From: a virus
DNA length: 49,225 nt
Strand: one strand, 5' to 3'
IMG/VR virus record: IMGVR_UViG_3300018405_000004
The notes below the pieces were generated by a model. The model did not search any database. It was given only the letters and a program-made list of their open reading frames with translations, and was not told the DNA's origin. Made by a program: the position numbers and the translations under genes. This document shows positions 3,723 to 25,478 of this stretch, piece by piece; the stretch's first letter is position 1, and each line of letters begins with the position of its first letter.

Positions 3723-5510
3723 TTAGAAACCTCGTTTCAGTTTGCCAGCGGTAGGGAATGCCTTCTCGAAATCGCTGATGGATGCGGAATCCTGAGCCAG
3801 AGGGGCAGGACGTGAGTTTTCTTTCTGGCTGATTGCCATTTTCACCAGTGACGGGAACGCAGATGGGTGAACGCCTTTAATGTCTACGCCGGACTGCTCA
3901 AGTGCGGTGCGGTAGACATCAGCAGCTGAGTCCATTGCAACAACATCACCAATCAGTGGGCGCACAGCCTGTTCAGCTTCACGGACTTCCCGGAAGTTCT
4001 GAGCGGCCTTTTTGGTTGCGCTGTCAGCTGCTAAGCAGATCGCAGAGTCCATAGCCGTTTTGGAGACTTTGTCGTCTTTCTTGTCATCGTCTTCATCGTC
4101 TCCGTCATCGGCGGGCTTTTTCTTTTTGTCGCAGCAGTCGTCTTCGTCATCGGCGGGCTTGTCTTTCTTGTCTTCTTTTTCGGCTTCATCGAGAGCCAGA
4201 AGTGCTTTGCGTACTTCTGCTTCCAGATCCGCGTCTGCTGCCAGTAATGGCTTCAGCGTGGCGCGAATAGCCGCGGCTTTGCGTTTGCTCATGTGCTTTA
4301 ACTCCGGTGGTAAAGAATCTGCGACCAATACGTCGCTTCCTGCGCGGCCTGTTTCGACCAGCGCCACGTGGTTCCCGATAATGTCCCGCATGATGCCGTC
4401 ATAGACTTCACCAGTCGGGGTCGTGCCGGGGGTCATGTCAGCGACGTATTGGTACGACGAAGACAATTCTTCCTGTTCTTCCGTCTCGATACCGGCGATG
4501 GCTGAGTTATCCCACACGGAAAGACCGTTAGTGAGATACGTTCCATCAAATGCGGCGTTCGAGTGCGTTACACCAACACGGTTTTCGTGAGGCGGGTCGC
4601 CAGGGAAGTCAGGTGTATGGATTGAAAGGAGTGGAATGTTGTTGAATGTTGCTACGGCTTTCTTCAGCTCATCAGGGTGACGCCAGAGCCGGTATATCTT
4701 CTCCGGGTCGAGCCCTAACCTCTCAGCGCCGGGAATCTCTCGCCCGAAGTAAGGGCAGACGTTGGCCTTGCTGATATTACTGACCTTAACCTGAAGCCTG
4801 CCGTTGCCATCAAACGTGCGCACTGAGGCGCGGTCGAATGCTAGGCTTTCTGTAATCCCGTCCATTGCGGGTTTCTTTTCCTCGCTGACGTATCTGACCT
4901 TTATGGTCACTGGCTGCCCAGGAGATTTCGGTGGGTGTACACCGACAACCTCCATTTTTGCGTTTCGAGGAAGAAGGGTTTCATCTTCATGCTTGTTGCT
5001 GGAAAGTCCGGTGACATCGAGGCCTTTATCACCCGGCTTTGTTTCTATCTGAAGCATTACGCCGCCGATACCGAACATCCCGGCGATCTTTTTCTCTTTT
5101 GAAGTGGAAAGAAATGCAGGATCAGATACGACCATTCCTTTCTTGATATCTCCACCCGGAAATAACTTTTTGGCGTCTTCCCTGCTCATCCCTCGATAAA
5201 GAGTTTCGCCACCCAAACTTCCCTTGCTTATCGCTGAGTCAATTCTTGCTACATCTGGATCTGACTTCTCACCCACTCGCAATTGAGAGTTTATTTTTAA
5301 GAAGTTGTCGCCCGAGTAGCTTGATATTGCTGTTTTTTCGTTAGTAGATAACTTTGCTCCGGTTGATTTTTTTTCTTCTTTTTTGCTGGTTATCTTCCCT
5401 TCAGCGCCAGCTACAACATCTCCGCTTTCATCAACTTTGACATGTGAGCCTTTTATCGTGATCCACTTATCTTCGTCCTCGGCTAGCGAGTAGGATTCGA
5501 GTTCGTCCAT
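3723..5510 (-). CDS. ADP-ribosyltransferase domain fused to a DUF2213-type prohead scaffold/protease protein (595 aa)
   Basis: aa 57-208 carry [18 protein letters not shown] (R106), FLSTS (135-137) and HEDETLLPR (E175, E177), which together make the R-S-ExE signature. aa 216-420 ([22 protein letters not shown]) are DUF2213-like. An acidic D/E/K linker follows. The gene lies between the MuF and capsid genes. Confidence 0.75.
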
Positions 5511-12388: not shown

Positions 12389-12463
12389 TGGTGCCGGGCA
12401 AAGGAATCGAACCTCTGACGCATTGCTTACAAGGCAATCGTTCTGCCACTGAACTAGACCGGC
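12389..12463 (-). tRNA. tRNA-Thr (anticodon UGU)
   Basis: Cloverleaf read by eye. Anticodon arm ATTGC-CTTGTAA-GCAAT and T-arm AGAGG-TTCGATT-CCTTT; the 3' CCA is encoded. One U-C mismatch in the acceptor stem. Confidence 0.75.
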
Positions 12464-12467
12464 TTAT

Positions 12468-12544
12468 TGGTGGGCCATAAAGGATTCGAACCTTCTGCCA
12501 TTCCCTTATGAGGGGACCGCTCATACCAAATGAGCTTCTGGCCC
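12468..12544 (-). tRNA. tRNA with CAU anticodon (Met, or Ile2 if lysidine-modified)
   Basis: Anticodon arm TCCC-CTCATAA-GGGA, T-arm GAAGG-TTCGAAT-CCTTT, acceptor GGGCCA/TGGCCC; CCA is encoded. Confidence 0.7.
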
Positions 12545-12550
12545 GGAATT

Positions 12551-12625
12551 TGGAGCATCTGGCGGGGATCGAACCCGCATATTCTGGGTGGAAGCCAGAC
12601 GTAATTACCAAACTACGACAGATGC
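12551..12625 (-). tRNA. tRNA-Gly (anticodon UCC)
   Basis: Perfect acceptor GCATCTG/CAGATGC, anticodon arm TCTGG-CTTCCAC-CCAGA, T-arm GCGGG-TTCGATC-CCCGC; CCA is encoded. Confidence 0.85.
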
Positions 12626-17000: not shown

Positions 17001-17291
17001 TTATTGAACAGGGCGGCCGCACCACGATTTATCGTCGTGAAGCTCTTTACAGCGAAGCCAGATACAGTCGTAAACGAATGGGATGAAAGCCCTGAAGAAC
17101 TCTTCCCATTGCGATGGCCGGAAGCCAGTTACTTCGTCTACCATCGCCTCAATCGGCGTTCTGCGAACCGGGGGGCGTGTTACACCATAAAGCCGCTCGA
17201 AGTTTTCGATAAGCTCCTGCTCTTCCAGGCAGGTATCGAGCACCGCTGCGAATCGTGGGTTGGTGAGAAGTAAAAGCACTTGCTTTTTCAT
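17001..17291 (-). CDS. Hypothetical protein (96 aa)
   Basis: ATG at 17291 forms an ATGA overlap with the DnaB stop. The longer track start at 17351 is rejected. Confidence 0.55.
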
Positions 17292-19681
17292 ACGTCTGCA
17301 CCTTTTGAATACCGCTTGCCCTTCGCTGGCTGATGACCTGTAGATGTGCAAATCCCCCTCGCCTCATCCTGATCGCAATCCATAAAGTGACCATTAACGA
17401 AGCGCTGATAAACGGTACCCAGCGAGCCGAAACGGTTTTTAGTCACGATGATTTCTGCGAATTTTGCCGCCAGGCTGTTCTCGTCATACACCGCCTCGCG
17501 GTAGAGCATGATGATTGAGTCGGCGTCCTGCTCGATGCTGCCAGAGTCGCGAAGGTCTCCGTTGGTGGGGCGTTTGTTGGGTCGTTTCTCAACTTCGCGT
17601 GATAGCTGGCTCAGTGAGATGACCGGGGTTTTTAGGTCTTTCGCCATTCCCTTTAGGCTGCCAGAGATATGCGCGATAGCCAGGTCATTGCGATCGGCTT
17701 TCGGTTTCTCAATCAGGCCCAGGTAATCGACCATGATTAGCGACAGTTGCGGATGCGACTGCTTGTGCCGTTCTGCCACCGCGCGGATCTGCTCGACAGT
17801 CAGCTTTGACGCATCAACCAGCCAGACATCCAGGTCCTGCAACCGGGCAATGCCATTCGATACCCTGGCCCAGCCTTCATCGTCCATGCGCGCCGGGTTA
17901 CGTAGTACGCTAACCGACATGTTCCCGGCCCCGGCAATGCTTCGCTCGGCAATCTGAAGTTTGCTCATCTCCATGCTGAAAATCAGCACACCGCGCCTCG
18001 TGTTACTGCCGGGTATCATCCGGCTCGCAACGCCCTCAGCAATTTTCAGCGCCAGTTCCGTATTGTGCGTAACGATGTAATCCGTTGTCACATAGAGATG
18101 GCTAGGATGACTCACCATAATGCAGAGACATTCTTCTGGCTCAACCGCTTCCACCGATTTGATTCCCACACCAAGGTCGCCAAGCCTGTTAATGCCAAGG
18201 TTTTTGCGTAAACGTGGTGAGTGAATTTGCTCTATTACAGATGAAGGCAACTTCATGCTGACCATATACGCATCAAGCCCTTTAAGCTTTTCTCCTTTGT
18301 ACGTGTAAACTATTCCCGTCCTGCTGGATTCTTTTGCGGTTCCACCCAGAGATCTAACAAGCTTTATTAATCCTTTAGCTAATTTCTGGCTGGATGAACT
18401 AAAGCGGATGCATCCAAACTTCTCTATCCAACCGTCGGTTTCAAGAAGGCCAGTTAAAACACCGGTACGTATTTCTTTATTAGCACTAAATATTTCTGCT
18501 GGGATTTCCTTCTCGGAAGCTCCTTTCCCAATTAACCCAAGACCACGCAGTTTGTCCAATAATGGGTTCTTTTGCCCTTTTTGATTGCTGATCAGATAAT
18601 CATTTTCTCCTACCTTAACCAGTCGTAGTGGTGCAATTGCATGGGTCATGCGGTTCAGGACGTATTCTTCTGAGTTGGTGAATTTGACGCCATTTATCAA
18701 CGAGCCATCACCAAGGAGAGCCCCTATAACCCAACCATCAAGGGGTATATTCCCACCAAAGTCTCCGGTAACTGCTGGAACTCTTATTCTTCCCTGATAG
18801 CGTGTTTTTTGTAGCATCCCAGCAAGAGCATCAGTATCAACAACACGTTTACCCGTAAATTTTGATGATGAAATTTCCCATAAGTGGTTGTCGGCACATT
18901 TCACGCTGCGTCCATCTTCAAAGGTAACTAAGTAGGTGAATTTCTTTCCTTGCGGGAACACTCCTATTACCTCAGAAGGAGCCCCATCTATTGACGCGAT
19001 GCGATCGCCAATTTTGATTTCACCGTGAGTTGTCCAAATGCCATCTGCAAGCAAAATCCCTTCATTCAGTGCCATTGCTTTACCCATACCAGGCCGGGCG
19101 GCGATAATCACCAGGTCTTCGGCGTTCATTCCTCCGGTGATGGCGTCCAGGTCGTCAATGCCGGTCTTCATCGTGTCGGATTCTTCGCCGTTGGTCAGGC
19201 GCTTCTCCAGGGTGTCGGTGTAGTCCGTCAGCAGGTCGCCAAGGCGTACTGGCTGAATCTCATGCTTAGGCTTCCTGATGACGCTCAGACGCTTTGTCAG
19301 CTCGTCCATTGCCTGCGATGACTGGTCCAGCGTTCCGTTGCTGATAGGCCCGCGCATTTCGTCCAACAGTTGCAATACCAGGCGACGCTCGTAGGAGTCC
19401 GTTACCATCCCGGCGTAGCCTTTCAGGTTAGCGGCGCTCGGGCAGGATTTAGCGGTCTCCATGATGTCCGCGAAATGCCCGTCACCGCATTCCTCGGCAA
19501 CCATCAGGCCATCAATCAGGTTTCGCACTGCGGCTTGTTTCTGGATGACGCGATAGGCTGTCTGGTATAGCGGGATGGAAAATGCTTCTGGCGGTACGGT
19601 TGCGAGAACTTCACTGGCTGCCGGTGTCAGGCCGCCAATCAGCAGGCCGCCGATAACGCTGGCTTCGATATCCTGTCTCAT
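17288..19681 (-). CDS. dnaB: Replicative DnaB-type helicase (P22 gp12 analogue) interrupted by an intein
   Basis: N-terminal DnaB domain. Walker A ARPGMGK is split from [10 protein letters not shown] by 339 aa. Downstream RecA-like motifs IMVDYLGL and SLSQLSR. Confidence 0.9.
18062..19078 (-). mobile_element. Intein (339 aa, Ala202-Asn540) with a LAGLIDADG homing-endonuclease domain; class-3-like
   Basis: Excising A202-N540 restores GMGK|T. Block [13 protein letters not shown] (H266, W268). LAGLIDADG motifs [12 protein letters not shown] and [11 protein letters not shown]. Block F CLCIMV (C520). Block G IVTHN|T. The region is AT-rich by eye. Confidence 0.8.
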
Positions 19682-20802
19682 TGAAGCCCCTTATCAGCAA
19701 ATTTAGCCTCACGAACACCAAGCAGTGTTTTATCGCGTAACAGGTAGTCGATGTCCGCCGCCCAGCCTGTGTCGTTTTGACCGAAGTAAAATGGTTTAGC
19801 CTGAGCGACAAACGCTTTCACGTATGCTCTCCAGCCTTCAACGTTTGGGGTCTTGAGTTGCGGTATGAGTTTCTTAAGGCGGCGCTTGCGGGTGTCATTC
19901 AGCGCAACGGCATGAGGTAATAACTCGCCGACCTCTTCGTTGTAAGCCTGAATGAATGCCTGGTAGTCAGTGCGATCTGCTTTTCGCTTTTCAGGTTTAG
20001 AAACCTGCGCATCTTCCCCCTCTGGGGGTAAGGGGGTATTTGTCTTTATTGTCTTTTGTATATTGTCTTTTGTGTGTACCTCACGCTGTAAATCGTGATT
20101 TACTGACGGTGTGACACTATCTGTCACATACGGTGTAAAACTTTCCATGACGGCGTTAATCTTATTTACCGCCTGAGTTACGGTAGTCCCGAACATCTCT
20201 CCATGAATCATCTGCCCTTTCATCGCTTCGTGGACTAATGGTTCGATAGCGCCTGCTTGCAGATGGAATGGCGAAATATAAAAGACTTGAGGATTATTAC
20301 CTTCGAAGTAGTACTTAACTTCTTTCAGTCTTTCTTCCGCATCCCGCGTGGTGAAACCGACTTTAACTGGTCCGAACTCATCTTCCGCAAAAACGTAAAT
20401 GTAACCAGCCTTATGCTTGGTAGAGCCATACTCCCTGCGACGCTCTGGACGCTCTACGCACCAATCAGAAAACACCTTGTTAATGCCAACCTTTCTACCC
20501 TCAGTGATCAACACATTCATGTTCAACAACTCTGTTTTAGTAGAGCTGCACCTGGTTCTTGGCATCCCGGTCATTTCTGACAATTGCTCGCCACTTATCC
20601 AGTCAAACTTCTTGTTGAATCCGTATGTTTTGCGGATTACAGCTAGCAGGAGTTTCATCTGCCGAACAGTGAAGTTGTTAGACATAATGGCATCGAGCAA
20701 ATCATTGGCGATGCGCGTATAGCCATCTTCAATGTCTGCCACCTGTCGCTCCATTGCCTCTTGTTGAGGCTTACGATAATCAGCTAACTTAACGACGCCC
20801 AT
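19678..20802 (-). CDS. Replication initiator (lambda O / P22 gp18-like) with an inserted T5orf172/GIY-YIG-like domain
   Basis: AGGAGG SD before the ATG at 20802. N-terminus [12 protein letters not shown]...[15 protein letters not shown] is Phage_rep_O-like. The middle segment GYIYVF..VKVGFT..R...H is T5orf172-like. C-terminus [11 protein letters not shown]. Confidence 0.8.
20016..20140. repeat. Candidate origin (ori) repeat cluster inside the initiator gene
   Basis: CCCCCTCTGGGGG palindrome followed by GGGGG; three copies of TTGTCTTT(T) at a 10-14 bp period; GTAAATC-GT-GATTTAC palindrome; ACGGTGT x2 flanking GTGACA-N5-TGTCAC. Confidence 0.45.
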
Positions 20803-20953
20803 GCCTACCTCCTGATGCGACAATTGCCAGCCGGATAACACCAATCAGACGTTCTGCGAACGCCCGGTTTTTAGAGGCTGCAACGACTAATCCATCAGGT
20901 GAATCAGGGTGCTCCCGCTCTTCTGCGGGAGTTTGTTTCTTGCGATTTTTCAT
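20789..20953 (-). CDS. Hypothetical basic 54-aa protein
   Basis: GGGGG SD before the ATG at 20953. The 3' end overlaps the initiator start by 14 nt. Confidence 0.4.
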   Translation of the reverse strand: MKNRKKQTPAEEREHPDSPDGLVVAASKNRAFAERLIGVIRLAIVASGGRHGRR

Positions 20954-20963
20954 GGCTAGCCCC

Positions 20964-21500
20964 CTACAAACGCATTGGCATGATGATGACTTGCCCGTTA
21001 CCGAACGCGCCGTTGAACTCGACGACGGCAGCATTTTCTGAGCCGCCAGGCTTAATTTTTACGCCGCAGAAACGGGGGTTATAGAGCTTCGCAGCCTTTT
21101 CGATATCAGCGAGGTAGCTGGCATTGAATCCAATCTCATCTACCGGTTTTGATTCATGCGAGGAGCGCAGTCTTTCAACATCAGGGAATCGCCCATCAAC
21201 CACCTTGCAAACGCCAGCAGATGTGCGCTCACCGTGTTCATCCAGGTAGGAAACGATTCCGGTATCAGTGTCGATTGAGGCAGTTTCAAACTTCGTAACC
21301 TTCGGTCCGCTGACAGCAACGATGACCTGTTCAACCAGGTCTTCGGTTGTGTGCTCACCGATAAAGGCGCGATGACCGTCAGTGGAGTAAAGTTTCTTAT
21401 CGGGAGAGAAACAGACGCCATTCAGGTAATAACGAACGTCGCCTTTAGCCTGGAATATCATTGCGCTCAGCAGCGCATTTTTGCTTACTGTCAAAATCAT
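20964..21500 (-). CDS. Truncated DNA polymerase III beta-clamp (DnaN) homologue, 178 aa
   Basis: GDVRYYLNGVCF..LYSTDGHRAF, VVDGRFPDVERL, IGFNASYLADI and the C-terminal IIMPMRL mirror E. coli DnaN domain II plus the last ~60 aa of domain III. Confidence 0.75.
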   Translation of the reverse strand: MILTVSKNALLSAMIFQAKGDVRYYLNGVCFSPDKKLYSTDGHRAFIGEHTTEDLVEQVIVAVSGPKVTKFETASIDTDTGIVSYLDEHGERTSAGVCKVVDGRFPDVERLRSSHESKPVDEIGFNASYLADIEKAAKLYNPRFCGVKIKPGGSENAAVVEFNGAFGNGQVIIMPMRL

Positions 21501-21519
21501 GGTATTCTCCAGTTGTGGT

Positions 21520-21810
21520 TTAGAAATCCATCGTCACTTGTGAATCCTCGGTTGCAGCCGGGGATTTTTTATTTGTGAGAATCGCTGCCACCTGAGACGC
21601 CAGCCGGGCCATCTCATCGTCAACAATCCCCCATTCAAGCACTGCCAGTAACATCGAAATCTTCGGGATAAAGTCCCGCTTCCATCGCGTTATCTGCGAG
21701 CGATCAACGCCGATTGCGTCAGCTATTGCCTTGCTTCCATGCAACGTGATTTTGTTGAGCAAGGTACTTTCAATCTGCCGCGCAGATGTGCGTGTGCGTG
21801 TACGTTCCAT
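21520..21810 (-). CDS. cII: CII lysogeny-establishment activator
   Basis: 96 aa. Near-collinear with lambda CII (IES.LLNKI..G......GVD.SQI.RWKRD.IPK.SMLLAVLEWG.VDD.MARLA.QVAAILTNKK.PAATE). Confidence 0.9.
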   Translation of the reverse strand: MERTRTRTSARQIESTLLNKITLHGSKAIADAIGVDRSQITRWKRDFIPKISMLLAVLEWGIVDDEMARLASQVAAILTNKKSPAATEDSQVTMDF

Positions 21811-21916: not shown

Positions 21917-22111
21917 TTAAGCTGCTTTTTCTTTGCTTGGGAAAGGTTTGAATTCCTCACCTTTCACCGTGCCATCTTCCTGAACCGTCACAAAAATCTG
22001 TCGACCGGTTCGAATGGCTTTACTGATAGCGCACTGGATTACTCCAAAATCCTTCGCGGCCTTTGCCTGGCCGTGAATTTTTGCGTAATCCTCAAGTGTC
22101 ATTCTGGTCAT
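21917..22111 (-). CDS. cro: Cro repressor
   Basis: 64 aa. Collinear with lambda Cro (TL.DYA...GQ.K.AKD.GV.Q.AI.KAI..GR.IF.T...DG.V..EE.KPFPS). AAGGAG SD. Confidence 0.9.
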
Positions 22112-22209: not shown

Positions 22210-22215
22210 GAAGTG

Positions 22216-22926
22216 ATGGAAAATAAAAAGACCCTGACGGCAGAACAGCTTAGAGACGCAGAGCGACTTAAGGCTTTGTATGAGTCAAAAAAGAAAGATT
22301 TAAAAATCACTCAATACACAATCGCCGACGCGCTTGGCATATCGCAGGGCGCTGTGGGTCATTACATGAATGGTCGCATTGCTCTGAATGTTCCGGCGTT
22401 AACCTCTCTGGCGAAAATACTTAACGTCAGCCCAGCGGAGATAAGCCCGTCACTGGCTAAAGAAATTGGTGAGTACGCAAGGTCTATCGATGCGAACGTC
22501 TCAGGCTTTACGCCTTATACAAAAGGTGTTAGCTATCCGGTGCTGAGCAAGGTTCAGGCAGGTGCGTGGGCGGAAGCCGTTGAAGCGTACACCTTGAAGG
22601 ATATAGACCTCTGGCTTGAGTCTGATGCTCACATCCAAGGGGATGCGTTCTGGCTTGAAGTGGAAGGCGATTCGATGACCGCGCCGATGGGGTTGAGCAT
22701 ACCAGAAGGCACGTTTGTGCTTTTCGATACCGGTCGTGATGCATGCAATGGCAACCTGGTCGTAGCCAAGCTGCAAGATGACAACGAAGCGACGTTCAAG
22801 AAACTGATAATCGATGGCAGTCAGCGCTATCTGAAGGGGCTGAACCCGCAGTGGCCGCTGGTTTCAATCAATGGCAACTGCACGATTATTGGCGTGGCTG
22901 TAGAGACGAAGCTGCGGCTGCTGTAG
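22216..22926 (+). CDS. cI: CI repressor (HTH plus S24/LexA-type autocleavage domain)
   Basis: Lambda CI-like length and layout. HTH ITQYTIADALGISQGAVGHYMNG. C-terminal S24 domain (GDSM...LVVAKL..ATFKKL). A GTG at 22213 is an alternative start. Confidence 0.9.
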   Translation: MENKKTLTAEQLRDAERLKALYESKKKDLKITQYTIADALGISQGAVGHYMNGRIALNVPALTSLAKILNVSPAEISPSLAKEIGEYARSIDANVSGFTPYTKGVSYPVLSKVQAGAWAEAVEAYTLKDIDLWLESDAHIQGDAFWLEVEGDSMTAPMGLSIPEGTFVLFDTGRDACNGNLVVAKLQDDNEATFKKLIIDGSQRYLKGLNPQWPLVSINGNCTIIGVAVETKLRLL

Positions 22927-24911: not shown

Positions 24912-24934
24912 GTCGCTACGGCGGCTTTTCTTTT
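24912..24934 (+). terminator. Intrinsic terminator after the N-like gene
   Basis: GTCGC-TACG-GCGGC followed by TTTTCTTTT. Confidence 0.6.
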
Positions 24935-24956
24935 GCCTAAATTTGAGGGTTTAACA

Positions 24957-25478
24957 ATGAATGCCACTGAGTTATCCAAGATTCTCGAAGAGCATAAGGT
25001 CTACGTAACGTCATTCGGTGAGAACGGATCGAAAGCCAACCTGTACGGTGCCAACCTGCGCGGTGCCGACCTGCGCGGTGCCAACCTGCGCGGTGCCAAC
25101 CTGCGCGGTGCCGACCTGCGCGGTGCCAACCTGCGCGGTGCCAACCTGCGCGGTGCCAACCTGCGCGGTGCCGACCTGCGCGGTGCCAACCTGTACGGTG
25201 CCGACCTGTACGGTGCCGACCTGCCTGATCTCACTTTCGTAATCGTGGGTGAGAAGTACTTCATCAGCATCACTAACGGTGAATATGTCCGGGCCGGATG
25301 CCAGAATCACACCGCCGATGAATGGCGCAAATATAGCAAACACGACATCGCAGAAATGGATGGGCGTACCGCACTGAAATTCTATCCACGTTTGCTGGAT
25401 ATTATCGATTTCTATCTCAGCAAAGGCGAGAGGCCTGAATGGCTGACCAGCAAAGAATATGTTGAAGAGGTCGCATAA
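24957..25478 (+). CDS. Pentapeptide-repeat protein (173 aa) with a non-repeat C-terminal domain
   Basis: 13 consecutive A(N/D)L(R/Y)G pentapeptides. ATG at 24957 after GAGGG. Confidence 0.85.
25035..25229 (+). repeat. Near-perfect 15-bp tandem repeat (12 full units plus 1 degenerate) encoding the pentapeptide coils
   Basis: Units GCC(A/G)ACCTG(CG/TA)CGGT read directly. A 45-bp superunit ([15 protein letters not shown]) is also visible. Confidence 0.95.

What the first reader, a model, noticed from the sequence alone, without database searches (positions are those of the whole stretch)
20964..21500. Half-size beta sliding-clamp homologue at the head of the replication operon
Seen in the sequence: a 178-aa protein shares strong local matches with E. 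coli DnaN.
- Domain II matches: GDVRYYLNGVCF...STDGHRAF versus QDVRYYLNGMLFE...ATDGHRLA, and VVDGRFPD versus LVDGRFPD.
- The protein then jumps about 75 residues ahead to the end of domain III: IGFNASYLADI versus IGFNVSYVLDV, and the terminal IIMPMRL versus VVMPMRL.
- Domain I and the first half of domain III are missing.

Inference: the retained pieces contribute the hydrophobic cleft that binds clamp-binding motifs. The protein could be a decoy that titrates clamp partners (Hda, Pol IV, the delta subunit, MutS). It could poison or heterodimerise with host beta. Alternatively it could form a novel oligomeric ring that favours phage replication.
Basis: partly seen in the sequence, partly recalled or inferred. 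Interest (0 to 1): 0.7.

Follow-up and report, generated by a model that had tools for sequence, protein, structure and literature searches.

The report
Ring-less phage mini beta-clamp
A temperate phage encodes a half-size copy of the bacterial DNA sliding clamp that keeps the pocket where polymerases and repair proteins dock but has lost the parts needed to close a ring around DNA; it belongs to a widespread phage protein family that was catalogued years ago but has no functional study that I could find.

Summary
ORF 20964-21500 (minus strand, 178 aa) is a DnaN homologue: phmmer 5.5e-11, hhalign prob 99.2%, AF2 pLDDT 93.9, and Foldseek matches at E<=0.001 listed are all DnaN chains. Residues 7-119 match DnaN 136-255 (domain II). 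Residues 120-178 match DnaN 314-366 (the last half of domain III). Domain I and DnaN ~256-313 are missing, and these hold every published ring-interface residue.

14 of 17 mapped residues of the clamp-binding-motif pocket are identical to E. coli. Across 143 diverse relatives (median 31% identity) the pocket residues are the conserved core (11/17 vs 24/178 columns, p=2e-7).

It is not a broken gene. The family has at least 150 clusters at 50% identity, 267 phage genomes and 411 viral contigs, all about 165-220 aa. Short phage polIII-beta homologues were noted in passing in 2011 and in GenBank notes, and PHROGs mislabels them 'RusA-like resolvase'. I found no functional study.

Best reading: a ring-incapable, single-pocket module that binds clamp-binding peptides of host proteins, most likely as a competitor or sponge. 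Heterodimerising with host beta through the ring interface is not. The decoy and new-ring ideas remain untested.

Side lead: the adjacent cII ends in QVTMDF, a clamp-binding-like hexapeptide.

The parts
20964..21500 (-). Mini beta-clamp CDS: 178 aa, ATG at 21498-21500, stop codon at 20964-20966.
   Evidence: ORF listing. Full-length match to phrog_3007, E=6e-51. DnaN homology. AF2 pLDDT 93.9, pTM 0.89. DnaN-only fold matches.
21144..21500 (-). Residues 1-119: a domain-II-like part, with residues 7-119 aligned to DnaN 136-255. It carries R23, L26, T40, G42, H43, R44, P106, R110 and L111, which correspond to pocket subsite I. The second helix of domain II is shortened.
   Evidence: hhalign, BLASTP, secondary structure, pocket mapping.
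20967..21143 (-). Residues 120-178: a single strand-helix-three-strand motif equal to the last half of domain III (DnaN 314-366). It carries N126, Y129, I172, M174, P175, M176 and R177, which correspond to pocket subsite II plus the gate Met.
   Evidence: hhalign, BLASTP HSP2 at 37% identity, pocket mapping.
21505..21510 (-). Shine-Dalgarno sequence (GGAGAA on the minus strand) for the mini-clamp gene. It lies in the 19-nt gap after the cII stop codon.
   Evidence: Read directly from the sequence.
21520..21810 (-). cII gene immediately upstream in the same operon. Its product ends in the hexapeptide QVTMDF (nt 21523-21540), which fits the hexameric clamp-binding consensus.
   Evidence: Pfam Phage_CII, 1.6e-38. 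Motif scan. Consensus from PMC11139829.
20789..20953 (-). A 54-aa ORF between the mini-clamp and the O-like gene. It was called as a gene on identical metagenomic contigs. Its function is unknown and its reality is unproven.
   Evidence: Gene calls on L009-L011; sequence.
19678..20844 (-). Lambda-O-like replication initiator with an inserted T5orf172 domain. The likely true start is an internal ATG near 20802. It is a downstream operon neighbour.
   Evidence: Pfam Phage_rep_O 1.1e-35 and T5orf172 2.4e-7. A 374-aa gene call.
17288..19681 (-). Phage DnaB-type helicase, 797 aa, interrupted by an intein-like insert with a LAGLIDADG domain. It is a downstream operon neighbour.
   Evidence: Pfam DnaB and DnaB_C (two stretches) plus LAGLIDADG_3.
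21917..22111 (-). cro, the first gene of the early-right operon that also contains the mini-clamp gene.
   Evidence: Pfam Cro, 1.6e-25. One promoter-like site at 22168-22140 on the minus strand.

Best explanation
The gene encodes a ring-incapable, single-pocket derivative of the bacterial beta sliding clamp.

Shown:
- It folds as domain II plus the domain-II-proximal half of domain III.
- It retains an almost unchanged clamp-binding-motif (CBM) pocket.
- It lacks domain I and the distal half of domain III, so both surfaces that close the beta2 ring are gone.
- This phage encodes no DNA polymerase or clamp loader among the ORFs scanned.
- The gene is placed for transcription and translation with cII and the replication genes of the early-right operon.

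Inferred:
- The protein binds QLxLF / QxxLxF-type peptides of host clamp clients, away from the DNA-loaded host clamp. It therefore acts as a competitor or sponge.
- It has one pocket and is not topologically linked to DNA. It should therefore capture monovalent, freely exchanging clients best. These include Hda, Pol II/IV/V (strongly induced by the SOS response that also induces the prophage), MutS/MutL and free delta.
- It should compete poorly for Pol III core, which holds the ring through two pockets. That would let a phage dependent on host Pol III clear competitors from clamps on its own DNA, or block Hda-mediated DnaA inactivation, without stopping its own replication.
For: Fold and homology.

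Pocket: 14/17 residues are identical in this protein. Across 143 relatives at median 31% identity, 11/17 pocket columns are at least 70% identical, against 24/178 columns overall (p=1.9e-7). 15/17 are class-conserved. Pocket definition: PMC11139829.

Ring interface: all interface residues lie in DnaN 74-106 or 272-304, and both stretches are absent.

Real, selected gene family:
- 124 close homologues of 174-192 aa.
- The best 150 clusters at 50% identity are almost all 165-220 aa and match over their full length.
- 267 phage genomes and 411 viral contigs.
- Predicted structures of relatives superpose at TM 0.83-0.88.

No dedicated partner gene: neighbour clustering over 86 loci finds only the lambdoid cI repressor recurring. 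In Bcep43, Dhillonvirus, Skatevirus and Gorganvirus the gene sits inside head or tail modules on the opposite strand to the flanking structural genes, either alone or in a short cluster. That points to host clients.

No polymerase or clamp loader among 26 ORFs scanned in this phage.

Precedents:
- Monomeric beta (I272A/L273A) cannot tether Pol III processively, yet it binds delta about 50-fold tighter than the ring.
- Occupying the clamp pocket from the other side (Mu MuC overexpression) gives over-initiation, which its authors hypothesised reflects raised ATP-DnaA (abstract).
Against: - No binding was measured or modelled, and the clients are unknown.
- A pocket this similar to the host's could also bind Pol III alpha, epsilon and delta, which this phage needs. 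The avidity argument for selectivity is my inference.
- The five conserved basic positions outside the pocket (11, 19, 135, 138, 143) all lie on or next to the two retained channel helices. More than half of the wider family has pI >8. That fits DNA contact better than a purely soluble sponge, although this protein and its clade are acidic (pI 5.8; clade median about 6.0).
- Carriers include phages with their own Pol I. One universal benefit is therefore not obvious.
Confidence: 0.45

Rival explanations
1. Loader-independent DNA tether, like herpesvirus UL42. The protein binds DNA directly through the basic residues of its two retained channel helices. It uses the pocket to recruit a CBM-bearing enzyme (host Pol III, Pol I, ligase, or a phage enzyme) to phage DNA without forming a ring.
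For: All five non-pocket positions that are at least 60% basic in the family lie on or beside helices 7-16 and 127-140. Family median pI is 8.3, against 5.25 for E. coli DnaN. Kazlauskas & Venclovas linked elevated pI, in clamp homologues without a clamp loader, to direct DNA binding. Monomeric beta still binds DNA. In lambdoid phages and in Kosakonia Kc237 the gene sits in or beside the replication module.
Against: This protein and its lambdoid clade are acidic: pI 5.8 and net charge -3 for the protein, clade median about 6.0, none above 8. Two of the four channel helices expected for two domains are lost. Monomeric beta cannot confer processivity. This phage has no polymerase of its own to tether. 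Competing with the host ring for Pol III alpha would lower processivity.
Confidence: 0.2
2. Novel homo-oligomeric clamp. Each clamp domain is a pseudo-dimer of two strand-helix-three-strand motifs. Two orphan half-domains could therefore pair across a true two-fold axis, and four 1.5-domain chains could in principle close a six-domain ring.
For: The architecture is exactly 1.5 domains. The deletion leaves surfaces that are buried in DnaN. Smaller clamp forms are known: E. coli beta*, comprising domains II-III, was reported to act as a clamp (from memory, Skaliter/Livneh 1996; not found in the library).
Against: The monomer model is already very confident and compact (pLDDT 93.9, pTM 0.89). Such a ring would have only 8 of the 12 channel helices. 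Such a ring would probably still need loading, and whether the host loader could load it is unknown.
Confidence: 0.08
3. Receptor for the CII tail. The pocket binds the C-terminal QVTMDF of the CII protein encoded immediately upstream. This would buffer CII's replication toxicity and/or shield its C-terminal FtsH degron, and so tune the lysis-lysogeny decision.
For: The window CII ends in QVTMDF, and lambda CII ends in QIQMEF. Both fit the consensus Q-phi-x-[L/M]-x-[F/L]. In lambda, removing the last 5-10 residues relieves toxicity and plasmid loss, and Gln(-6)Arg plus Met(-3)Val reduce plasmid loss (PMC5869508). The two genes are 19 nt apart.
Against: The same mini-clamp also follows CII variants that end in ...TFEA or ...FFEA. 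Lambda has the tail but no mini-clamp. Virulent carriers have no cII. The near-versus-far motif enrichment is weak (p=0.044) and is driven by one syntenic group. The lambda authors attribute the phenotype to RNA polymerase.
Confidence: 0.07
4. Subunit poison. The protein co-assembles with host beta at the ring interface and blocks ring closure or loading.
For: It is a homologue of host beta and is made early in infection.
Against: Both halves of the head-to-tail interface are absent.
Confidence: 0.03
5. Either a decaying gene fragment captured from a host, or a RusA-type resolvase as many records annotate it.
For: GenBank note 'DNA Pol III b subunit fragment'. The PHROG label 'RusA-like Holliday junction resolvase'. 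Kazlauskas & Venclovas treated horizontally acquired clamp homologues as probably dispensable for replication.
Against: Length and deletion boundaries are conserved across hundreds of lineages down to about 25% identity, with residue-specific conservation. There is no Pfam RusA hit. The fold matches listed at E<=0.001 are all DnaN.
Confidence: 0.02

Closest known systems
Bacterial beta sliding clamp (DnaN, E. coli P0A988; PDB 2POL, 1MMI)
   Same: Same fold and homologous sequence for domain II and the last half of domain III. The CBM pocket is nearly identical, with 14/17 residues the same, including the H175/M362 bridge and the C-terminal MPMRL.
   Different: Half the size. It lacks domain I and DnaN 256-313, and therefore every ring-interface residue. 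Two of the four expected channel helices are lost. It fails the curated DnaN thresholds.
Short phage polIII-beta homologues (Kazlauskas & Venclovas 2011, NAR, PMC3201878); phrog_3007; Bcep43 gp15 'DNA Pol III b subunit fragment'
   Same: This protein is a full-length member: phrog_3007 E=6e-51, and 31% identity to Bcep43 gp15 over 89% of its length. It has the same length class.
   Different: Those sources describe the short forms only as 'covering the second and third domains' and set horizontally acquired clamp homologues aside as probably dispensable for replication. They do not note the half-deleted domain III, the lost ring interface or the selective conservation of the pocket. The PHROG functional label is wrong.
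Monomeric beta variant I272A/L273A
   Same: A clamp fold with an intact pocket that cannot close a ring. It still binds delta (about 50-fold tighter than the ring) and DNA.
   Different: It is an engineered three-domain protein. The phage protein is a natural 1.5-domain form and lacks the domain-III loop that also contacts delta.
Herpesvirus UL42/UL44 non-ring processivity factors
   Same: Clamp-fold proteins that work without a ring or a loader.
   Different: They have a strongly basic DNA face and a cognate viral polymerase. This protein is acidic, and the phage encodes no polymerase.
Phage proteins that bind the host clamp pocket (Mu MuC, PMC12867686; Staphylococcus phage Twort gp168 and G1 ORF240, the latter two from memory)
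   Same: Phage interference with the clamp-client network (abstracts).
   Different: Those proteins present a CBM-like ligand to the host clamp. This one is the reverse: a copy of the receptor.
E. coli beta* (UV-induced internal-start product of dnaN, domains II-III; from memory, not verified here)
   Same: An N-terminally shortened clamp that starts at almost the same place. Residue 7 of the mini-clamp aligns to DnaN K136.
   Different: beta* keeps the whole of domain III and was reported to function as a clamp. This protein lacks the distal half of domain III.

Membership tests
Beta sliding clamp DnaN (TIGR00663; Pfam DNA_pol3_beta/_2/_3) | Scores above the curated family thresholds | tested here: not met
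   TIGR00663 scores 16.9 bits against a cutoff of 137.65. PF02767 scores 19 bits against 27. There is no hit to the domain I or domain III models.
Beta sliding clamp DnaN (TIGR00663; Pfam DNA_pol3_beta/_2/_3) | Three homologous domains in a chain of about 366 aa | tested here: not met
   178 aa. The alignment covers DnaN 136-255 and 314-366 only.
Beta sliding clamp DnaN (TIGR00663; Pfam DNA_pol3_beta/_2/_3) | Head-to-tail dimer interface (I78, F106, K74, R96, R103, R105 with I272, L273, E298-E304) | tested here: not met
   All of these residues fall in segments with no counterpart in the protein.
Beta sliding clamp DnaN (TIGR00663; Pfam DNA_pol3_beta/_2/_3) | Clamp-domain fold | tested here: met
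   AF2 pLDDT 93.9. All 50 Foldseek PDB matches listed, of 56 at E<=0.001, are DnaN chains, with prob 1.00 and TMq up to 0.65.
Beta sliding clamp DnaN (TIGR00663; Pfam DNA_pol3_beta/_2/_3) | CBM-binding pocket residues (subsites I and II) | tested here: met
   14/17 mapped residues are identical, and 15/17 are class-conserved across the family. V344 could not be aligned.
Beta sliding clamp DnaN (TIGR00663; Pfam DNA_pol3_beta/_2/_3) | Closed ring that encircles DNA and confers processivity | not testable with these tools
Short phage polIII-beta homologues (phrog_3007) | Full-length match to the family profile | tested here: met
   phrog_3007 E=6.2e-51, residues 1-178 against profile positions 1-186 of 190.
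Short phage polIII-beta homologues (phrog_3007) | Length of about 165-220 aa with the same domain-III deletion | tested here: met
   Homologues are 174-192 aa. The best 150 clusters are almost all 165-220 aa and match end to end. BFVD models superpose at TM 0.83-0.88.
RusA Holliday junction resolvase (the label carried by phrog_3007 and by many RefSeq records) | RusA domain or fold | tested here: not met
   No Pfam RusA hit at E<=0.01. Every fold match listed at E<=0.001 is DnaN, none RusA.
Non-ring viral processivity factors (UL42/UL44 type) | Elevated pI or a basic DNA-binding face | tested here: inconclusive
   This protein has pI 5.81, and its clade has a median of about 6.0 with none above 8. 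The wider family has a median of 8.3. Basic positions are conserved on the retained helices.
Non-ring viral processivity factors (UL42/UL44 type) | Cognate virus-encoded DNA polymerase | tested here: not met
   No polymerase among the 26 ORFs scanned in this roughly 49-kb phage.
Known anti-phage defence proteins (PADLOC) | Match to a defence-system model | tested here: not met
   0 families at E<=1.

The most novel reading that the evidence does not exclude
Lambda-type CII proteins carry a genuine clamp-binding motif at their extreme C-terminus: QIQMEF in lambda and QVTMDF here. Through it they occupy the host beta-clamp pocket. That would explain the long-unexplained replication inhibition and toxicity of CII, which depend on its last 5-10 residues and on Gln(-6) and Met(-3). 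The mini-clamp encoded 19 nt downstream of cII would be a phage-made receptor for that tail. It would buffer the replication block and/or shield the overlapping FtsH degron, wiring the lysis-lysogeny switch to the replisome.
Probability: 0.07. Interest if true: 0.85.

Novelty: new variant of a known kind. Interest (0 to 1): 0.55.

Why it matters
The beta clamp is the hub through which replication, translesion synthesis, mismatch repair and control of initiation are coordinated, and it is an antibiotic target. Known phage interference with this hub works by presenting a ligand to the host clamp.

This family does the reverse: it copies only the receptor pocket and discards the ring. If it binds clamp-binding motifs, it would be a natural, compact, monomeric 'pocket domain'. 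That would be:
- a new way for phages to re-route host polymerases or to disable Hda, TLS or MMR;
- a ready-made reagent for probing the clamp-client network;
- a minimal scaffold for screening pocket inhibitors.

The family is common: hundreds of sequenced phages of Salmonella, Escherichia, Klebsiella, Vibrio and Burkholderia, including phages proposed for therapy. It is widely misannotated, so correcting the label has practical value. The side observation that CII tails look like clamp-binding motifs offers a testable explanation for an old lambda phenotype.

Tried and rejected
- Linker-fused tandem dimer for AF2, to test self-association or ring formation. Model coordinates are not exposed, so surface and interface analysis was impossible.
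- Search for a conserved partner gene. I ran ORF calling and all-against-all clustering of neighbours within 3 kb in 86 loci. Only the lambdoid cI repressor recurs across lineages, which reflects synteny and not partnership. My ORF caller is crude, so the neighbour strand calls are unreliable. I relied on annotated genomes for the opposite-strand pattern.
- Defence or anti-defence link: no PADLOC hit.
- Plasmid leading-region link: only 15 plasmid records. Ten hold most of the protein and are annotated hypothetical, some beside Rha or ORF6N genes. The others are partial matches to full-length dnaN or to records with no annotation there.
- E. coli chromosomes: no megablast match in 5,426 complete genomes.
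- pI criterion for direct DNA binding: it depends on lineage and is inconclusive for this protein.
- CBM-motif enrichment in neighbouring ORFs: borderline (Fisher p=0.044), and driven by cII in one syntenic group. Tail types do not co-vary with the mini-clamp.
- Nine literature searches found no functional study of the short form. Only the 2011 survey mentions it. One search call failed on syntax.
- The BLAST gap misplaced V360. I corrected this using the profile register.
- Rfam found nothing near the gene.
Full report
**1. What is there**

The window carries a lambdoid immunity and replication region on the minus strand. A cI repressor lies at 22213-22926 on the plus strand. Reading leftwards on the minus strand come cro (21917-22111), cII (21520-21810), the ORF in question (20964-21500), an O-like initiator with a T5orf172 insert (19678-20844), and a DnaB helicase interrupted by an intein-like LAGLIDADG insert (17288-19681).

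The ORF starts with ATG 19 nt after the cII stop and has a GGAG Shine-Dalgarno 6 nt upstream. The scan found no terminator-like site on the coding strand between cII and the ORF. It is therefore positioned to be made with cII and the replication proteins from the early-right operon.

The window equals a roughly 49-kb metagenomic phage contig. It also encodes an integrase, Erf, SSB, NinG and myovirus-type tail genes. No DNA polymerase or clamp loader appears among the 26 ORFs scanned.

**2.

- phmmer against PDB sequences finds only beta clamps, the best at 5.5e-11.
- BLASTP against E. coli DnaN gives two HSPs: residues 7-149 to DnaN 136-283 (1e-10), and residues 122-178 to DnaN 316-366 (3e-6, 37% identity).
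- Residues 120-149 can align to either half of domain III, because the two halves are internal repeats. A family profile resolves the ambiguity. hhalign gives one colinear alignment (prob 99.2%, E=6.9e-20): residues 7-119 to DnaN 136-255, then residues 120-178 to DnaN 314-366. That is a single deletion of about 58 residues.
- AlphaFold2 with a 50-sequence alignment gives pLDDT 93.9 and pTM 0.89. The secondary structure reads as three strand-helix-strand motifs, the middle one without its helix.
- Foldseek against the PDB lists only DnaN chains among its matches at E<=0.001 (E about 6e-7, TMq up to 0.65). Alignments of 200-266 columns are consistent with the deletion.
- The curated DnaN models are not passed. 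The protein is a derived homologue, not a DnaN.

**3. It is a family, not debris**

- Close relatives of 174-192 aa occur in prophages of Atlantibacter, Escherichia, Enterobacter, Yersinia, Serratia, Arsenophonus and Dickeya.
- A profile search of 1.84 billion cluster representatives gives 74 hits at E<=1e-30. The best 150 are almost all 165-220 aa and match end to end.
- tblastn finds the gene in 267 of 50,697 phage records, among them Salmonella, Escherichia, Vibrio, Klebsiella, Proteus and Burkholderia phages.
- 411 IMG/VR stretches encode a relative.
- BFVD models of relatives superpose at TM 0.83-0.88.
- Annotations are inconsistent. Some records say 'DNA polymerase III beta subunit'. Others say 'RusA-like Holliday junction resolvase', the phrog_3007 label. 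The second label is unsupported: there is no RusA hit and the fold is DnaN.
- The Bcep43 record already says 'DNA Pol III b subunit fragment'.
[quoted passage not shown] They set horizontally acquired clamp homologues aside as probably dispensable for replication.
- Nine literature searches found no functional work on the short form.

**4. What was kept and what was lost**

The pocket and interface definitions come from the 2024 beta-clamp review.

- Kept: 14 of the 17 pocket residues that can be mapped are identical to E. coli. These are R152, L155, T172, G174, H175, R176, P242, R246, N320, Y323, M362, P363, M364 and R365.
- Changed: three pocket residues differ. V247L and V360I are conservative and L177A is not.
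- Conserved in the family: 143 relatives have a median 31% identity to this protein. Only 24 of 178 columns are at least 70% identical, and 11 of them are pocket residues (hypergeometric p=1.9e-7). 15 of 17 pocket residues are class-conserved (p=1.1e-7).
- Lost: every ring-interface residue lies in a missing segment. These are I78, F106, K74, R96, R103 and R105 in domain I, and I272, L273, E298, E300, E301, E303 and E304 in domain III.
- Also lost: the helix of the second domain-II motif is not predicted and the first helix of domain III lies in the deleted segment. Only two of the four expected channel helices remain.

Selection has therefore preserved the client-docking pocket and discarded the ring.

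**5. Context across the family**

- Hafnia phage yong1 has the same cII-to-mini-clamp layout but a different replication module (Phage_rep_org_N plus a DnaC-like protein).
- In four unrelated virulent lineages the gene lies inside the head or tail module, on the opposite strand to the flanking structural genes. These are Naesvirus Bcep43, Dhillonvirus TheodorHerzl, Skatevirus Skate and Gorganvirus 2207-N35. In Bcep43 and TheodorHerzl it is a lone gene. In Skate it ends a short same-strand cluster with a ParB-like gene. In 2207-N35 one small same-strand ORF precedes it.
- In Kosakonia Kc237 it sits beside helicase and primase genes.
- Dhillonviruses encode their own Pol I, whereas this phage encodes no polymerase.
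- Clustering of neighbours in 86 loci found no recurrent partner apart from the lambdoid repressor.
- The protein matches no defence model and is rare on plasmids.

This pattern fits a stand-alone protein that acts on conserved host components.

**6. Mechanism**

Shown: a clamp-fold protein with an intact CBM pocket, without the canonical ring interfaces, co-located with early genes.

Inferred:
- It binds clamp-binding peptides.
- A ring-less beta cannot confer processivity, because monomeric beta I272A/L273A fails to. This phage also has no polymerase of its own. So I favour competition or sequestration over tethering.
- The protein has one pocket, and Pol III core grips the ring through two pockets. 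Monovalent clients should therefore be captured preferentially. Candidates are Hda, the SOS-induced Pol II/IV/V, MutS/MutL and free delta, which binds monomeric beta about 50-fold tighter than the ring.
- For an SOS-induced prophage that needs host Pol III, removing translesion polymerases or Hda from the clamp economy is a plausible benefit.
- The Mu MuC work shows that perturbing pocket occupancy produces over-initiation (abstract). That gives a concrete phenotype to look for.

Confidence, by my judgement: about 0.85 that this is a ring-incapable pocket module; about 0.65 that it binds CBM peptides; about 0.35-0.45 that sequestration is the biological role.

**7. Rivals**

- *DNA-bound tether of the UL42 type.* In favour: conserved basic positions on or next to the two retained helices (11, 19, 135, 138, 143), and a basic family median pI of 8.3. 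Against: this protein and its clade are acidic.
- *New homo-oligomeric ring.* Four chains of 1.5 domains would make six domains. This could not be tested.
- *Poisoning host beta through the ring interface.* Disfavoured, because the interface is absent.
- *Pseudogene or RusA resolvase.* Rejected.

**8. Side lead**

- The CII encoded immediately upstream ends in QVTMDF, and lambda CII ends in QIQMEF. Both fit the hexameric CBM consensus Q-phi-x-[L/M]-x-[F/L].
- In lambda, CII toxicity is ascribed to inhibition of host DNA replication.
- Deleting the last 5 residues relieves that toxicity 24-fold, and deleting the last 10 abolishes plasmid loss.
- Gln(-6)Arg plus Met(-3)Val reduce plasmid loss. 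Those are CBM positions 1 and 4 (PMC5869508).
- That paper does not consider the beta clamp.
- A pocket module encoded next to such a tail is suggestive. However, the same gene also follows CII variants ending in ...TFEA or ...FFEA, lambda has the tail without a mini-clamp, and virulent carriers lack cII.
- I therefore rate a CII-specific role at about 7%. I flag the 'CII tail = clamp-binding motif' idea as independently testable.

**9. Verdict**

The cleft-retention argument is supported by new quantitative evidence. The functional ideas are only partly supported.

The gene is a member of a catalogued but uncharacterised and often misannotated phage family. Relative to characterised systems it is a new variant of the sliding clamp: pocket only, with no ring.

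Interest is moderate to high (0.55). The family is widespread and mechanistically suggestive, and simple binding assays could test it directly. Its existence is not new, and its function remains inferred.

Noticed in passing
window 21523-21540 (-), the last six codons of cII; also L092 (lambda cII): CII ends in QVTMDF, and lambda CII ends in QIQMEF. Both fit the hexameric clamp-binding consensus at the extreme C-terminus. Published lambda genetics tie the last 5-10 residues, and Gln(-6) and Met(-3), to CII toxicity and replication inhibition (PMC5869508). CII might bind the host beta clamp.
   Followed up: partly
window 17288-19681 (-): The phage DnaB helicase is 797 aa. Its DnaB_C domain is split in two by an intein-like insert of roughly 330 aa that carries a LAGLIDADG homing-endonuclease domain.
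   Followed up: no
window 19678-20844 (-): The lambda-O-like replication initiator carries an inserted T5orf172 domain between its N-terminal O domain and its C-terminal part.
   Followed up: no
window 20789-20953 (-): A 54-aa ORF (MKNRKKQTPAEE...) fills the gap between the mini-clamp and the O-like gene and overlaps the O start. Gene callers called it on identical contigs. It has no family hit on record.
   Followed up: no
window 21542-21567 (+), inside the 3' end of cII: An antisense hairpin followed by a T-run resembles the lambda oop terminator. The matching promoter would have to lie within the first codons of the mini-clamp gene. If so, insertion of this gene has displaced or overlapped the pO/oop unit.
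   Followed up: no
window 3723-5510 (-): A 595-aa protein fuses an ADP-ribosyltransferase exoenzyme domain (PF03496, 2.5e-16) to a DUF2213 domain, next to the portal and Mu-F-like head genes. It may be a virion-delivered ART toxin or effector.
   Followed up: no
window 24933-25478 (+): A pentapeptide-repeat protein ([15 protein letters not shown]...) lies in the early-left region. Proteins of this class are often DNA mimics.
   Followed up: no
window 12392-12625 (-): Three tandem tRNA genes lie in the late-regulatory region.
   Followed up: no
phrog_3007 and RefSeq phage records (e.g. NC_054639 gp41, NC_005342 gp15): The functional label 'RusA-like Holliday junction resolvase' attached to this family appears to be a propagated misannotation. 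The fold and sequence are DnaN-like, and no RusA signal is present.
   Followed up: yes
L002, L035-L064 (Skate-like clade); L079-L091: In the Skate-like clade the mini-clamp start overlaps by 4 nt a conserved 57-66-aa ORF (...FEECLKVAKQHMIKVK). In another prophage clade it overlaps by 4 nt a gene whose N-terminus I judged, by eye, to look like a BRO-N or ORF6N antirepressor. Unrelated upstream proteins in that clade share the C-terminal motif W.HP..G.F. The overlaps suggest translational coupling, so lineage-specific partners are possible.
   Followed up: partly
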